Shown here: positions 1,242-63,570 of the stretch, piece after piece | How positions within the stretch are numbered: the first letter of the stretch is position 1 | Layout of the letters: each line of letters begins with the position of its first letter | Source of the DNA: Eledone cirrhosa | Taxonomy: Eukaryota | DNA: 64,000 bases | Direction of reading: 5' to 3' | NCBI GenBank assembly: GCA_964016885.1 | Contig: OZ024741.1 | Location: 42,904,001-42,968,000 of the forward strand | Position numbers and translations under genes: made by a program | Notes under the pieces: generated by a model | The model's database searches: none | Told to the model about the DNA's origin: nothing | What the model saw: only the letters and a program-made list of their open reading frames with translations

Positions 1242-1321
<80 letters not shown>

Positions 1322-1328
1322 TAAAATA

Positions 1329-1404
1329 ACAGATTAATGTTTAAGCAAAGAATCGCTGCTTTCACCCTTAACGGGATATTCTGAAACTAACAAAGTCAAT
1401 CTGT
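1329..1404 (-). ncRNA. Degenerate copy of the variant hammerhead (core CAGAAUA)
   Basis: Reverse complement of 2759-2834 with the G8 position changed to U. Confidence 0.5.
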
Positions 1405-2758
1405 AAACGCAGAAGTGGATATTTCAAAAAACGTTGCAACCGAAGGAAAACAGGAAGACGATACTTTGGTTCGTGGAAACGTTCGCTGGCAAAGAACGGG
1501 AAAAAAAACGAATATAATACGTCATTAATAGGAGCGGTGAAAACAATTACGCGCAAAGAGAGAACCACGTTTATGGTATAAAAGAGGTCGTAGACTAATG
1601 TTCTCTTAGGTGGTTCATAGAGACGTTCTCTGGCAATAAACGAAAAAAAACGAAGATAATACGTCATATGTGGAGCGTGGAGAACAATAGCACGCAAAGA
1701 CAAAACCACGTAAATGGTATAGCAGAAGTCGCAGACTAAAATTCTAATTAGGAGACCGAATGAATCTCCGCTACAGAGTTAAGGACAAAGTAAATAAATA
1801 CAATACAGAAGTAATCGAAATAAATAAATACATACACGCAAACAAATACGTACATACACAAGCATATGCAAAACACTTACCATAGGTATACAAAGCCACG
1901 TACATATAAATATGTGTGTGTGTGTATGCGTGTATACAAATAAATAAATAATTATATAAACATATATAAATAAATAAATACGTATATAACAAGCGCACAC
2001 ACATACCTACATGTAAATACAATGTTTGGCTATGTGTATACGGGAGTTTTGCGTCTGTGTGAGTATGCAGGTTCGTACGTATGTAGGGTGTGTGTATATG
2101 TGTACTTCATGTTTGGTTGACTTACGTCTCCGAACATTCGTATATTTACATGTAGGTATATGTGTGCGCTTGTTATATACGTATTTATTTATTTATATAC
2201 GTTTATATAATTATTTATTTATTTGTATACACGCATACACACACACACATATTTATATGTACGTGGCTTTGTATACCTATGGTAAGTGTTTTGCGTATGC
2301 TTGTGTATGTACGTATTTGTTTGCGTGTATGTATTTATTTATTTCTATTACTTCTGTATTGTATTTATTTACTTTGTTCCTTAACTCTGTAGCGGAGATT
2401 CATTCGGTCTCCTAGTTAGAATTTTAGTCTACGACTTCTGCTATACCATTTACGTGGTTTTGTCTTTGCGTGCTATTGTTCTCCACGCTCCACATATGAC
2501 GTATTATCTTCGTTTTTTTCGTTCATTGCCAGAGAACGTCTCTATGAACCACCTAAGAGAACATTAGTCTACGACCTCTTTTATACCACAAATGTGGTTC
2601 TGTATTTGCGCGTAATTGTTTTTCACCGCTCCTATTAATGACGTATTATATTCGTTTTTTTTCCCGTTCTTTGCCAGCGAACGTTTCCACGAACCAAAGT
2701 ATCGTCTTCCTGTCTTCCTCCGGTTGCAACGTTTTTTGAAATATCCACTTCTGCGTTT

Positions 2759-2834
2759 ACAGATTGACTTTGTTAGTTTCAGAAGATCCCGTTAAGGGTG
2801 AAAGCAGCGATTCTTTGCTTAAACTTTAATCTGT
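2759..2834 (+). ncRNA. Type I hammerhead ribozyme candidate with variant core CAGAAGA
   Basis: Stem I ACAGAUUGA/UUAAUCUGU plus AGUUU/AAACU with a 7-nt bulge; core CAGAAGA; stem II CCC-GUUAA-GGG; GAAA; stem III AGCAG/UUGCU; CUU triplet ending at 2820. Confidence 0.65.
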
Positions 2835-2936
2835 TATTTTAATAAATATTTGCTCTACGGTTCTTATATATTTGATATATATTTATCCTTATCGAGCGCT
2901 CTTTGGATTTTAGTCTTCAAATTTATTATTATTACT

Positions 2937-3016
<80 letters not shown>

Positions 3017-3117: not shown

Positions 3118-3554
3118 TATTGTTATGCTTTGGGAGGGTCATATTGCCAATAAGAAACACACGCACCAGGGCTTTCACTCCAATTTATTATAAATTAAAT
3201 TAATAAATTTAATTCATAATAAATTGGTGTTCACACACAAAAACAAGATGGCACCAAAACAAAATTTATAAATTTAATTTATAATAAATTTTTGTTCACA
3301 CACAAACACAAGATGGCGTAGGACAGAACAAAGGAGAGGCACAAAACAAAGAAAAGAATCCCAGTCACTGAAGAGGTCACAGAATGTGTGACGAAAGAAC
3401 TTTGACAATATATGAACAACCGTCCGGTTATGGAACCAACCAACCAACCGGAAATTTATAAATTCTTAAATTTATAAATTTAATTTATAATAAATTGGAG
3501 TGAAAGCAACTGGTGCGTGTGTTTCTTATTGGCAATATGACCCTCCCAAAGCAT

Positions 3555-3561
<7 letters not shown>
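3118..3561 (+). mobile_element. Penelope-like pseudo-LTR with ~85-bp inverted ends
   Basis: 3118-3202 is inverted at 3477-3561; internal hammerhead motif and AATAAA; internal direct repeat 3219-3252/3283-3318; (TA)n on the right. Confidence 0.65.
3364..3406 (+). ncRNA. Minimal PLE-type hammerhead ribozyme candidate
   Basis: GUCA-CUGAAGA-G-GUCACA(GAAUG)UGUGAC-GAAA-GAAC-UU-UGAC: stems I and II pair, stem III is rudimentary. Confidence 0.6.
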
Positions 3562-3603
<42 letters not shown>

Positions 3604-3604
<1 letters not shown>

Positions 3605-4234
3605 CAACCAAAACTAAAAGCTCTTCCATACATCTCCACACACAACCCCCTCAACAACGAGGCCTTTGACACCATCCTCCAGAACATCCCTGTATTGAAA
3701 AAGGACCATAGAATGAACCAAATTCTACGAACACACGATATCATAAAAAGCAAAAGACAATCCAAGTCAATGAAAAACATCTTAACACATGCCAAAGTAC
3801 TGCCAACCACAACAACGAAACCCACAGTAAAAAAATGCGATAGACCCAACTGTGGCATTTGCATCAACCTAATAGAGGGTTCGGAATTCTATTTCAAAGA
3901 TGGACAACGTTTTATAGTAAAACACAATTTCACATGTGCATCGGAAAATTTAATATATGTATTAACTTGTTCAGGTTGTCGAGAACAATACATAGGCCAG
4001 ACCAAAAACAGCCTCCGCCAACGCATGACTGTCCATAGATCCCAAATTAAAATACGGGAATACAGGAAAATACCACTGAGTGAACACATTGATACCTGCG
4101 CCGCCCAAAATCATCCCAACTTCAGAATCTTTCCCCTCTACAAATTTAAAGATAATGCCACCCACACCCAGCGCATCAGCAAGGAATCTTACTTCATTAA
4201 CAAATACGGACCCCGTCTAAACACTTCTCCCTAA
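3604..4234 (+). pseudogene. 5'-truncated Penelope-like element, GIY-YIG endonuclease C-terminal region
   Basis: ORF 3695-4234 has CDRPNCGIC, NLIYVLTCSGCREQYIGQTKNSLRQRMTVH, LSEH and ESYFINKY..LN, i.e. a PLE GIY-YIG with Cys/His motifs. It begins abruptly after (TA)n. Confidence 0.88.
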
Positions 4235-37223: not shown

Positions 37224-40200
37224 GTTGTTATTCCTTGAATCTCAGTCATTGATGTTGGTTAACTGGAAAGTCCGTTGGATTGAATATCAAGCCACTACCT
37301 GCAGCCTCAGATATTCAGGACGTATCGGAGGGTTCTTGCTGTTCCAAGCAAGCATGCCTTTTGAAGCGTTCCAAAAAGCGTGAAGGGGCCGATTTTCTTT
37401 AACCATCCCTGGAAACTTTTGGAGTTAGTCCCCAGTGCGCCTATGACAATCGGGATCACTTTGACTTCATGGCAGTTCCAAATCCTTTTCACCTCCCACT
37501 TTAGGTCCTGGTATCGGTTAATTTTCTCCCTCTCCTTCTCTTGCACTCTCGTGTCGAACGGGCAGGCCACATCCACAATCAGACACGATCTTTTTTCTTT
37601 GTCCACAACCACCAGGTCAGGTCTATTGTGTTCCAGTTTTTTGTCCGTCTGTATCCTAAAATCCCACAGCACCTTCACCTGATTGTTCTCCATCACCGCC
37701 TCTGGCCTATGCTCATACCATTTCTCAGAATGTGGTAAATTGTTTACTTTGTACAGGTGCCAGTGGATCACCCTGCCCATCACATCGTGTCTCCAGCCCT
37801 TATAGTGGGTCTGGGCTAGGTGTTTACACTCGGACACAATGTGAGCCACAGTCACCTCTCTCTCTCCACAGATCCTGCACAGTGGGCTAGCCTCCTCCTT
37901 GTAGATATGGTGCTTCAACCACTTCCTCTTGAGGGCCTGCTCCTGCGCAGCCATTAGCATTCCTTCCGTAGCCTTTTTGAGGTCTCCTCTTCTCAACCAG
38001 TTCCATGTCTGTGGATCTCTAAATTCAGTTTTCTCAGAGAAGGTACTATGAAGGGATTTTCCCTTAAGGCTGCTCTTCCTCCTTGATGTTATTTCCTCCT
38101 TGGACATCCCCTGGCCTACTGTCCCCTCCTTCAGTACAGTTCTGAGCATTGGCTCCTTACTATAGGTCACGTATTTGTATAGGTTGTTTTTCTCCATCTG
38201 AACACAGTCCTCTATGCTGATAAGACCTCTTCCACCCTCAGATCTCCTTAGGTAGAGTCTATCGACATCACTCCTCTTGTGGAACATGTTGTAGATAGTC
38301 AATAGCTTCCTAGTCTTCCTATCCATTTCTTTTTGTTCAGCAATATTCCATCTCAGAATTCCCGCTCTGTACCTAATAATAGACACAGCTCGGGAATTTA
38401 CTGCGCTTATGGCATTTCTGCTGTTCAGATGTGACTTCAATACGCTCCTTACTCTCCGAATGTATTCAGTTCTTAACAATTCCTTCATTTTTTTGTTCTT
38501 TATGCCATCAGCCTCCAGAACGCCCAAATACTTGTATCCTTCCTCAGAGTCAATTTCCTTTATCATCTCACCTGTTGGTATCTGGATCCCGTTACTTCTG
38601 CTCAACCTACCCCTCTTCATCACAATGACTCCACATTTACCAATACCAAACTGCATACATATATCACTGCTGAAAATACGGACAGTGTCAACAAGCACAT
38701 CCAACTCCTTCTCACTTTTCCCGAAGAGCTTAAGATCGTCCATGAAGAGGAGGTGATTGATGGTAAGCTCTCCCCTTCCCAACTTGTATCCTGCTCTCAC
38801 TTTTCGCAGCATAATGGTCAAGGGCATCAGGGCAAGGACAAACAACAGAGGGGACAGGCTATCTCCCTGGAAGATACCTCTCTTGATCTTCACGCTTCCC
38901 AAGGATACTCCAGTTGATGTCAACTCTGTCTCCCAGGACCCCATACTCCTGCCTAGCAACTGTCTGATGTTATCTGCCACCCTGAAGATCTCCAGGCTTT
39001 TGGTGATCCAGGAATGAGGCACCATGTCAAATGCCTTTCTGTAGTCTATCCATCCCATGGCAAGATCAGTGTGTCTCCTCCTGCAATTCCCCATTACCAT
39101 CTTATCAATAAGTAACTGGTCCTTTGTACCACGTGACTTCTTTCGGCATCCTTTCTGTTCGTCCGGTAACAAGTTGTTTGTGTTGAGGTGATGGTAGATT
39201 TCCTCAGACACAATGCTCGTCAACAGTTTCCACATTACGGACAGACATCTGATAGGTCTATAGTTGGTAACATCATTACCCTTGATTCGGTCTTTCATTA
39301 TCAGAACTGTGGTACCTTTTGTCAACCACTCTGGCACCTCACCCGACACCAAGCAGTCATTGAACATGGCCGTCAGCTTCGGGTGGAGGGATGTTAAATG
39401 TTTAATCCAATACCCCTGCACACCATCTGGGCCTGGTGATTTCCAGTTGGTTAGTTTTTTGGCCTGCCCCTTAAGAGTTTCAACTGTGATACTCAAATCA
39501 GTTTGTTGTTGTGCCTGCTCACCGATCTCCCTCTGTACTGTCTCAATCCACCCTGCCTGGGCATTGTGTCTAACATCCTGATCCCATATTCCTCTCCAGA
39601 ATGTTTTAGTTTGCTCCGCCCCAGGGATCAAGTCGTTGCCTCTTTCTTTCCCCTCAAGCTGTCCAAACAGCATCTTCTGGTTGTTGTCGAACATGCGGTT
39701 CTGTTTATACTGACTGACTCTGTTCTCGTATCGCCTGATTTTTGTACTCTTTGCTACAATGCGTTGCTTCAGTTCCTCTATGATAATATTTAGCTTTTTC
39801 CTCCTAGTTTTGTATTTTATTTCCAGTCTATTTTTAGTGCCTATGTTTTTTAGTGTCCCATTCAGTAGTGACTCAAGCTTTCCTATGTCATTTCTCATTT
39901 CCCCGATTTGCCCACTCAGTCGCTTCTTCCACCACGGCTCTGCTCTTTCTTGTCTGTTGTTTCCTCTCGCTTTTATACCAAGTAGTTTCCTCACCGTATT
40001 TGCTGTTGCTTTGAGGATATTGTTGCACTGGTGAAGGCTCCTCGCCTCAAGGTATGGGATGACTTTGTTTACCTTAGCTGTTGTTTCTTTTAACTTTTTC
40101 CTGTCTACAAATCTTAGCTTCATAGGTCTCCCACTATCATTGTTCAATTCATCTACCACTAAATTTAGGATGTCAACCGAATCTTGTCCTAGCCCGTCAG

Positions 40201-40279
40201 CATTCATCTCCTCAGTGGCCGTATCTCTGTTCCAGGTATTATTTATCTCAGTATTCAGATCATTGTCTGCTTCGGGTGT
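37224..40279 (-). mobile_element. Dong family A copy A4, 5'-truncated, uninterrupted ORF
   Basis: Nearly identical to A2, arranged head-to-tail across (ATT)n. Confidence 0.95.
37307..40207 (-). CDS. R4/Dong-clade RT + CCHC zinc knuckle + restriction-like endonuclease (966 aa, N-terminally truncated)
   Basis: KSPGPDG, NYRPI, WIDYRKAFD, GIFQGDSLSP, FMDD, YKYLG, CRIC-x8-H-x4-C, RHD, RPDLVV..IVDVACP..K..RYQDL. Confidence 0.93.
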   Translation of the reverse strand: MNADGLGQDSVDILNLVVDELNNDSGRPMKLRFVDRKKLKETTAKVNKVIPYLEARSLHQCNNILKATANTVRKLLGIKARGNNRQERAEPWWKKRLSGQIGEMRNDIGKLESLLNGTLKNIGTKNRLEIKYKTRRKKLNIIIEELKQRIVAKSTKIRRYENRVSQYKQNRMFDNNQKMLFGQLEGKERGNDLIPGAEQTKTFWRGIWDQDVRHNAQAGWIETVQREIGEQAQQQTDLSITVETLKGQAKKLTNWKSPGPDGVQGYWIKHLTSLHPKLTAMFNDCLVSGEVPEWLTKGTTVLIMKDRIKGNDVTNYRPIRCLSVMWKLLTSIVSEEIYHHLNTNNLLPDEQKGCRKKSRGTKDQLLIDKMVMGNCRRRHTDLAMGWIDYRKAFDMVPHSWITKSLEIFRVADNIRQLLGRSMGSWETELTSTGVSLGSVKIKRGIFQGDSLSPLLFVLALMPLTIMLRKVRAGYKLGRGELTINHLLFMDDLKLFGKSEKELDVLVDTVRIFSSDICMQFGIGKCGVIVMKRGRLSRSNGIQIPTGEMIKEIDSEEGYKYLGVLEADGIKNKKMKELLRTEYIRRVRSVLKSHLNSRNAISAVNSRAVSIIRYRAGILRWNIAEQKEMDRKTRKLLTIYNMFHKRSDVDRLYLRRSEGGRGLISIEDCVQMEKNNLYKYVTYSKEPMLRTVLKEGTVGQGMSKEEITSRRKSSLKGKSLHSTFSEKTEFRDPQTWNWLRRGDLKKATEGMLMAAQEQALKRKWLKHHIYKEEASPLCRICGEREVTVAHIVSECKHLAQTHYKGWRHDVMGRVIHWHLYKVNNLPHSEKWYEHRPEAVMENNQVKVLWDFRIQTDKKLEHNRPDLVVVDKEKRSCLIVDVACPFDTRVQEKEREKINRYQDLKWEVKRIWNCHEVKVIPIVIGALGTNSKSFQGWLKKIGPFTLFGTLQKACLLGTARTLRYVLNI

Positions 40280-59419: not shown

Positions 59420-60160
<741 letters not shown>

Positions 60161-62915: not shown

Positions 62916-63562
62916 TTTTTCTTTTATATTTTTTCTTTATTTGTTTAGTTGTATTTATAATACTTGAATGTCTTTCTAATTCTATGGTTACATGCGATAA
63001 ATAATTCCTGTCTTTTATTTAATAGAATGTCTTTCGATTTAGTAATTTCAAAAATTTCTTCCGAACATAGTCCACATTCCTTTCTATTGCCCTGATAAGA
63101 AATGGTTCTTTTGAGAATCTTCCAAGTTAGGTTATAATTAATGTTATTCTTTTTACAATTATTAACTGCTTCCGCTAAAGAAGTGGTATTAGCTAATCTT
63201 GTATTTCGAATTATAACCTAACTTGGAAGATTCTCAGAAGAGCCATTTCTTATCAGGGCAATAGAAAGGAGTGTGGACTATGTTCCCAAGAAAGCTTTGA
63301 AATTACTAAATCGAAAGACATGCTATTAAATAAAAGAAAGGAGTTTAATATCGCATGTAACCATAGAATTAGAAAGACATTCAAGTAAACAAATAAAGAA
63401 AAATATAAAAGAATATATATATATAAGATTCCGTTAAGGGTGAAAGCAACGATTTTTTGCTTAAACTTTAATCTGTTATTTTAATAAATATTTGCTCTAC
63501 GGTTCTTATATATCTGATATATATTTATCCTTATAGATTTATCCTTATAAATTTATTATTTT

Positions 63563-63570
<8 letters not shown>
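62915..63570. mobile_element. Fold-back Penelope-like 3' end (Naiad-like endonuclease C-terminus) plus truncated hammerhead and tail
   Basis: 62920-63139 is inverted at 63209-63416. The arms translate to TSLAEAVNNCKKNNINYNLTWKIL...Y...KECGLC..E..EI....LLNKR.E...ACNH. Followed by the same pLTR end as 2785-2938. Confidence 0.72.

What the first reader, a model, noticed from the sequence alone, without database searches (positions are those of the whole stretch)
2759..2834. Repeated hammerhead variant with CAGAAGA core (U4 to A) and a full stem III
Seen: complete type I hammerhead topology with a bulged stem I, but the core reads CAGAAGA instead of CUGANGA. The CAG start is shared by all copies with an intact 5' core (2780 +, 59717 +, ~1383 -), so it is a family trait rather than decay of one copy. 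Positions 10.1/11.1 are U-U and the triplet is CUU. Established: PLE pLTRs carry hammerheads, usually minimal ones with a tiny stem III. Inference: a natural core variant that canonical CUGANGA searches would miss, possibly acting as a monomer.
Basis: partly seen in the sequence, partly recalled or inferred. Interest (0 to 1): 0.7.

Follow-up and report, generated by a model that had tools for sequence, protein, structure and literature searches.

The report
Conserved U4A hammerhead in Penelope retrotransposon
About 20,000 copies of a jumping gene in this animal genome carry a hammerhead-shaped RNA motif with A in place of a normally fixed U, kept through the family's long history, so it is likely a slowed-down self-cutting RNA, though cutting is untested.

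Summary
Confirmed: window 2759-2834 (+) reads as a type I hammerhead with A at core position 4 (2781). It lies in the pseudo-LTR of a Hydra-clade Penelope-like element whose full copies hold a 713-codon RT-endonuclease frame. A4 is the family state: 19,051 exact 23-mers versus 193 with any other base. It is derived: 54 of 78 related metagenome loci show U4 hammerheads, none A4, and an older family here has U4. It is old and constrained: against an ancient subfamily 27% diverged upstream, 0 of 52 stem and core positions changed versus 9 of 20 loop, bulge and N7 positions. The U-U pair, the U before the cut and a 3-4 bp stem III are ordinary in Hydra hammerheads; monomer action is unsupported because stem III is a near-palindrome. 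There is no cleavage evidence: no RNA data, no junction pile-up at the cut, covariation not above shuffles, and published position-4 mutants are weak. Best reading: an attenuated ribozyme (0.55). I found no natural U4A in the papers searched; this scan noted the family twice before on other DNA of the same genome.

The parts
2759..2834 (+). Type I hammerhead motif with A at core position 4
2780..2786 (+). 5' core strand C3..A9; position 4 = A at 2781; N7 = 2784 (varies between subfamilies)
2768..2774 (+). Stem I bulge; changes between subfamilies; candidate partner of loop II (inferred)
2787..2799 (+). U10.1, 3-bp stem II, 5-nt loop II, U11.1
2800..2820 (+). G12-A15.1, stem III (interrupted palindrome centred on 2811), triplet 2818-2820; predicted cut after 2820
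   Evidence: cut site by established hammerhead numbering, untested
2024..2937 (+). 5'-truncated PLE copy: pseudo-LTR, hammerhead and tail, ending at the +111 to +116 end site in (TA)n
   Evidence: 95.8% and 97.6% identical to full element L049
1314..2021 (-). Inverted partner copy; core at 1383 with A4 and G8 to U; ends at the +28/29 site in (TA)n
59599..59786 (+). Short copy: inverted tail (59599-59707, - strand) joined to a + strand hammerhead, core at 59717 with A4
63425..63568 (+). 5'-truncated copy starting inside the core (no C3, no position 4)

Best explanation
This is the hammerhead motif of a high-copy Hydra-clade Penelope-like retrotransposon, in which position 4 changed from U to A long ago and the rest stayed constrained, and it likely works as an attenuated self-cleaving RNA. 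Shown: the motif lies 156 nt upstream of the start codon and again after the ORF in tandem copies; genomic copies end mostly 28-29 or 111-116 nt downstream of the predicted cut and read straight through it. Inferred: those ends are the reverse-transcription start sites, so a fast cut in the downstream hammerhead would sever them from the body of the RNA. U4A would lower the rate enough to leave uncut template, while keeping occasional, perhaps dimer- or protein-assisted, cutting that trims or circularises the transcript.
For: Element identity and layout. A4 fixed: 19,051 vs 193; 10 of 10 inspected U-form 28-mer loci were inversion junctions. Copies chosen without the hammerhead in the query: A4 in 26 of 26 (87% subfamily), 25 of 26 (ancient subfamily; 1 C, 0 U) and 4 of 4 copies with 76-77% endonuclease DNA identity. 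Constraint has hammerhead shape: 0 of 52 stem/core positions vs 9 of 20 loop/bulge/N7 and 27 of 99 upstream positions changed (Fisher p 2e-6 and 3e-6); the one core position free in hammerheads, N7, did change. Derived state. Weak activity expected: single mutants of this core strand show low activity (PMC9901934); U4C is weak in vitro yet supports viroid infectivity (PMC3088659). Anole PLE inserts with a dead hammerhead and uses uncut RNA (PMC11167929).
Against: No cleavage data. Catalytic-core constraint alone is thin (0 of 11 positions); stems could be kept for protein binding. Covariation is not above shuffles (433 of 500 shuffles reach the score). No pile-up of junctions at the cut (179 vs controls 144 and 330; 0 of 35 ORF-bearing 5' ends). 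The predicted MFE is not the hammerhead. Three related copies share a broken stem II (L135, L141, L154). PMC9901934 found no double mutant that rescues this strand except the C3-G8 swap.
Confidence: 0.55

Rival explanations
1. Catalytically dead hammerhead fold kept as a structural element: a binding site for the element's protein, a guide for the two RT start sites, or part of the internal promoter or 5' UTR.
For: Most of the constraint signal is in stems (0 of 38). No genomic footprint of cutting. Hammerhead-dead anole PLE RNA still inserts in vitro; Naiads thrive without canonical hammerheads. Position-4 mutants are weak.
Against: All 11 core positions including G8 and G12 are unchanged while N7 changed, the pattern expected of a catalytic fold; U4C is tolerated in vivo in a viroid.
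Confidence: 0.25
2. Fully competent ribozyme: A4 is compensated by bulge-loop II contacts, dimer formation or the element's protein, giving near-canonical rates in vivo.
For: No reversion to U4 in any A4 subfamily sampled across 27% upstream divergence; bulge and loop II differ visibly between U4 and A4 families; tertiary contacts are proposed to offset core variants.
Against: Loops and bulge also drift within the A4 lineage, so no fixed compensating partner is evident; no rescue seen in pairwise mutagenesis of another hammerhead; copies read through the cut site.
Confidence: 0.15
3. Neutral passenger: a knock-out mutation in one master copy, amplified by chance, with no constraint since.
For: High copy number alone proves nothing; many loci were selected with hammerhead patterns.
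Against: Sets chosen on upstream or endonuclease DNA still show 0 of 52 and 0 of 68 structured positions changed against 27 of 99 and 27 of 182 upstream.
Confidence: 0.05

Closest known systems
Hydra-clade Penelope-like elements and their pLTR hammerheads (Craig et al. 2021, PMC8557442; section 11 and Files S1/S2 read)
   Same: Single ORF with C-terminal endonuclease, RW(K/R), DKT, CxCX5C, CxxC and CxH motifs, (TA)n targets, type I hammerhead in the pLTR, frequent U10.1-U11.1 and U before the cut, near-palindromic stem III.
   Different: All 26 listed Hydra rows have U4; this lineage has A4. Stem III spans 15 nt between A15.1 and U16.1 rather than 5-8. It is not the published Hydra-1_Obim family (different protein and hammerhead).
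Minimal and dimer-type PLE hammerheads (Cervera and de la Pena 2014, PMC4209133; parts 1-2 of 4 read)
   Same: pLTR location, thousands of dispersed single copies, inverted pairs, low expected activity.
   Different: Reported core variant is U3-A8, not position 4; stem III here can form a hairpin on its own.
Natural hammerhead core variants (Perreault et al. 2011, PMC3088659; passages and part 3 read): U4C, A6C, U3-A8, U10.1-U11.1, insertions
   Same: Natural deviation at an otherwise fixed core position; U4C is the direct precedent at position 4.
   Different: U4A is not named in the text or in the supplement text searched; those variants are single or rare, whereas this one is fixed in about 20,000 copies and several subfamilies.
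PAc Poseidon element of Anolis (Frangieh et al. 2024, PMC11167929; part 1 and passages read)
   Same: Two internal RT start sites define a tail downstream of the hammerhead cut; uncut RNA is the template.
   Different: Different clade; canonical core with shown cleavage; its cut lies inside the ORF, here 156 nt upstream of it.

Membership tests
Type I hammerhead ribozyme | Three stems around the core, open end in stem I | tested here: met
   88% of cells paired in 17 aligned copies vs 18-54% for slid controls
Type I hammerhead ribozyme | Invariant core C3, G5, A6, G8, A9, G12, A13, A14, A15.1-U16.1 and NUH triplet | tested here: met
   unchanged between subfamilies
Type I hammerhead ribozyme | U at position 4 | tested here: not met
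   A in 19,051 of 19,244 exact 23-mers; hence filed as a variant, not a canonical member
Type I hammerhead ribozyme | Stem covariation | tested here: inconclusive
   2 pairs with two-sided changes, not above shuffles; stems are conserved rather than covarying
Type I hammerhead ribozyme | Match to an Rfam hammerhead model | tested here: inconclusive
   No hammerhead hit at E<=1 in the window, but the canonical-core motifs at 3368 and 60242 were missed too
Type I hammerhead ribozyme | Site-specific self-cleavage | not testable with these tools
   Needs bench assay or RNA end data
Hydra-clade PLE | Single ORF, RT followed by C-terminal endonuclease, partial tandem giving pLTRs | tested here: met
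   L049 unit 3259 bp; 713-codon open frames in 12 of 12 fetched copies. No Pfam hit for two partial ORFs, so the assignment rests on motifs and homologs
Hydra-clade PLE | RWK-like, DKT, CxCX5C, CxxC and CxH motifs | tested here: met
   RWR, DKT, CxCX5C, CxxC, CxH read in the L121 protein against the clade description
Hydra-clade PLE | Insertion into (TA)n | tested here: met
Hydra-clade PLE | Canonical hammerhead in the pLTR | tested here: not met
   Hammerhead present but A4; U4 in the older sister family
Hydra-clade PLE | RT phylogeny within the Hydra clade | not tested
   No tree was built; visual match to the published alignment only
Non-LTR retrozyme | Short non-coding tandem repeats each with a hammerhead | tested here: not met
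   Copies are truncated or inverted ends of a protein-coding element

The most novel reading that the evidence does not exclude
A natural, working hammerhead with a purine at position 4, fixed because it acts as a brake: the lineage first gained a longer stem III with U4, then swapped to A4, and the A4 subfamilies went on to amplify to tens of thousands of copies. This would widen the hammerhead core consensus and show selection tuning a retrotransposon's ribozyme down but not off.
Probability: 0.3. Interest if true: 0.75.

Novelty: new variant of a known kind. Interest (0 to 1): 0.52.

Why it matters
What PLE hammerheads do is an open question: they are near-universal yet dispensable for insertion in vitro. 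This family gives a dated natural series (U4 family, ancient A4, recent A4) in one genome for measuring rate against amplification success. If A4 cleaves, the core consensus used in all descriptor searches is too narrow and abundant ribozymes are being missed; if it does not, the fold has a non-catalytic job that selection has kept.

Tried and rejected
Rfam scan: no hammerhead hit, uninformative because canonical motifs in the window were missed too. RNA evidence: no RNA holder listed. Contigs of four coded runs showed no variant of 5% or more at 2781; runs X5 and X6 hold few contigs (11, 47) and are not used as evidence of other hosts. Idea that the family consensus is U4: rejected; the 624 U-form 28-mers were inversion junctions in 10 of 10 inspected. 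Genomic footprint of cleavage: none, but no positive control with a canonical family was run and the anole element also shows none, so this does not separate slow from dead. Covariation: not significant. Per-position profile of 136 copies was set aside as biased, because most loci were chosen on hammerhead patterns. Pfam gave nothing for the element's ORF. Upstream search from L309 found only itself. A second unrelated U4A family was not found in 310 sequences, 1.15 Mb. Hairpin-versus-dimer energies for stem III were not computed, so the monomer question rests on reading the palindrome. Lunse et al. 2016/2017 on PLE hammerhead variants, Scott et al. 2013 and one recalled PMC id were not held; Perreault Fig. 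S7 was unreadable as text; per-mutant values of PMC9901934 were not read.

Full report
Observation. The motif is in the sequence as described: outer stem I 2759-2767/2826-2834, a 7-nt bulge, inner stem I 2775-2779/2821-2825, the 5' core strand at 2780-2786 with A at position 4 (2781), U10.1 and U11.1, a 3-bp stem II, G12-A15.1, stem III and a triplet ending at 2820. Four copies lie in the window against 0 in 100 shuffles. The copy at 1383 (-) also has G8 changed to U, the copy at 59717 has an inversion junction for its 5' arm, and the copy at 63425 lacks C3 and position 4. Prediction does not favour the hammerhead fold: -13.0 versus -15.1 kcal/mol, inner stem I probability 0.05-0.08, z = -0.63. 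Rfam gave no hammerhead hit at E<=1, but it also missed two canonical-core motifs in the window.

What it belongs to. The own genome is 3.0 Gb in 1796 contigs; a cephalopod host is my untested guess. Fetching paired hits showed a protein-coding element: in L049 two hammerheads 3259 bp apart flank an ORF, with the start codon 156 nt after the predicted cut. Many copies hold a 713-codon open frame (12 of 12 fetched). The protein has RWR, DKT, CxCX5C, CxxC and CxH motifs and copies end in (TA)n, which matches the Hydra clade of Penelope-like elements (PMC8557442 section 11). No tree was built, and Pfam gave no hit. Homologs reach 57% identity at best, most 38-44%. Window 2024-2937 (+) and 1314-2021 (-) are a truncated copy and its inverted partner, a usual PLE arrangement. 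Of 242 copies, 97 end 28-29 nt and 58 end 111-116 nt after the cut (20 more stop at +64 in a gap-free extension and were not examined). This resembles the two RT start sites of the anole PLE.

A4 is the family state. An exact 23-mer with A occurs 19,051 times; with C, G or T 193 times in all (8, 12 and 10 among the first 30). A 28-mer occurs 20,026 times with A and 624 times with T; 10 of 10 inspected T loci were inversion junctions.

A4 is derived. All 26 Hydra rows of File S2 in PMC8557442 have U4. Among 78 metagenome loci encoding relatives at 38-46% identity, 54 had a descriptor hit with U4, one of them also a C4 hit, and none had A4; five rounds of shuffles gave 4 hits. In this genome a rarer, more decayed relative with a different tail has U4: 6 U, 1 C, 0 A of 7 with position 4 left free, 2 of them seeds of the pattern and 2 possibly junctions. 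A search with upstream DNA only gave 30 loci, 10 with an alignable motif: the seed, 4 with that tail (all U4), 1 further U4, 1 C4 and 3 A4.

A4 is old and the motif is constrained. Sets chosen without the hammerhead in the query: an 87%-identical subfamily, where 26 of 30 loci carry the motif and all 26 have A4 (4 are chimeras with another repeat); 60 endonuclease-selected loci, 21 with a mapped motif, all A4, including 4 distinct copies at 76-77% identity (2 rows were query seeds, 1 a duplicate); and an ancient subfamily, where 26 of 30 loci have an alignable core with 25 A, 1 C, 0 U. Comparing majority letters of 25 ancient copies (5 loci without a complete motif dropped) with the window: 0 of 52 stem, core, 10.1/11.1 and H17 positions changed, versus 9 of 20 loop, bulge and N7 positions and 27 of 99 upstream positions (Fisher p 2e-6, 3e-6). 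For the 87% subfamily the figures are 0 of 68, 2 of 7 (bulge) and 27 of 182 (p 1.5e-4); some upstream differences may be alignment noise from an internal repeat. Limits: the core alone is 0 of 11, which is weak; covariation is not above shuffles; three related copies share a broken stem II.

What is not special. U10.1-U11.1 occurs in 14 of 26 and U before the cut in 10 of 26 published Hydra rows, most with 3-4 bp stem III; the U-U pair is a known tolerated variant. Stem III here is longer, but it is an interrupted palindrome around 2811 (2810-2812, 2809-2813, a mismatch at 2808/2814, then five pairs), so dimer folding remains possible. Monomer action is not shown.

Does it cut? Not testable here. 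No RNA holder was listed. None of 35 ORF-bearing 5' ends (one duplicate) lies at the cut; 18 run upstream past it and 13 cluster at +102 to +147. Junction counts at the cut (179) do not exceed two controls (144, 330). Published data say single mutants of this core strand have low activity and are not rescued, except by the C3-G8 swap (PMC9901934, passages). U4C is weak in vitro but supports viroid infectivity (PMC3088659). A PLE with a dead hammerhead still inserts in vitro, from uncut RNA (PMC11167929).

Mechanism. Shown: position, fixation, derived state, hammerhead-shaped constraint, read-through of the cut site. Inferred: the element is transcribed through tandem copies; reverse transcription starts 28-29 or about 111 nt past the downstream cut site, so fast cutting there would destroy the template; U4A slows the ribozyme while residual cutting is kept (0.55). 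Rivals: dead fold kept for protein binding or RT start (0.25); fully compensated ribozyme (0.15); neutral passenger (0.05).

Novelty. A new variant of a known kind. Searches for U4A or this core in the held papers found no hammerhead report (main text and supplement text of PMC3088659). The gaps are real: Lunse et al. on PLE hammerhead variants was not held, Perreault Fig. S7 could not be read, and subscription journals and bioRxiv supplements are not covered. What I saw of each paper: PMC4209133 parts 1-2 of 4; PMC8557442 passages, section 11, supplement part 2 and search passages; PMC3088659 passages, part 3, supplement search; PMC9901934, PMC6765202 and PMC11014351 passages; PMC11167929 part 1 and passages; bioRxiv 10.64898/2026.07.22.740005 part 1. 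Hammerhead numbering is from my own knowledge. This scan has two unreviewed notes on the same family elsewhere in this genome; they are not independent evidence.

Noticed in passing
L001:1282 (+), L056, L167, L197, L205 (two), L256: An unrelated minimal hammerhead family with C at position 4 (U4C) in 7 places among the fetched loci; position 4 seems loose in more than one repeat family of this genome.
   Followed up: no
window 3368 (+) and 3557-4234 (+): Canonical-core minimal hammerhead next to a GIY-YIG fragment (Pfam PF01541, E 1e-6): a second, different PLE family inserted beside this one.
   Followed up: partly
window 60242 (+): Canonical-core hammerhead with a short palindromic stem III, of a family also seen in L050, L054 and L056.
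   Followed up: no
L133, L134, L139, L152: A chimeric repeat that keeps this pLTR up to the outer stem I arm and then continues into unrelated shared sequence (4 of 30 loci; same loose end in run X5).
   Followed up: no
L135, L141, L154: A small lineage of this family with shared changes that break stem II and alter the tail; possibly amplified as a passenger.
   Followed up: no
L042-L090 (ORF-bearing copies): 5' ends cluster at +102 to +147 from the cut (13 of 35), close to the +111 3'-end site one unit away; fits a full round on a circular template or a protein roadblock. Unexplained.
   Followed up: partly
L050:4412-6274 and L053:2982-4326: Fragments of other Hydra-like families at 37-39% identity to this element's protein.
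   Followed up: no
window 10000-57000: Dense nest of non-LTR retrotransposon fragments, including a 990-codon RT frame at 37307-40279 (-) repeated in tandem.
   Followed up: no
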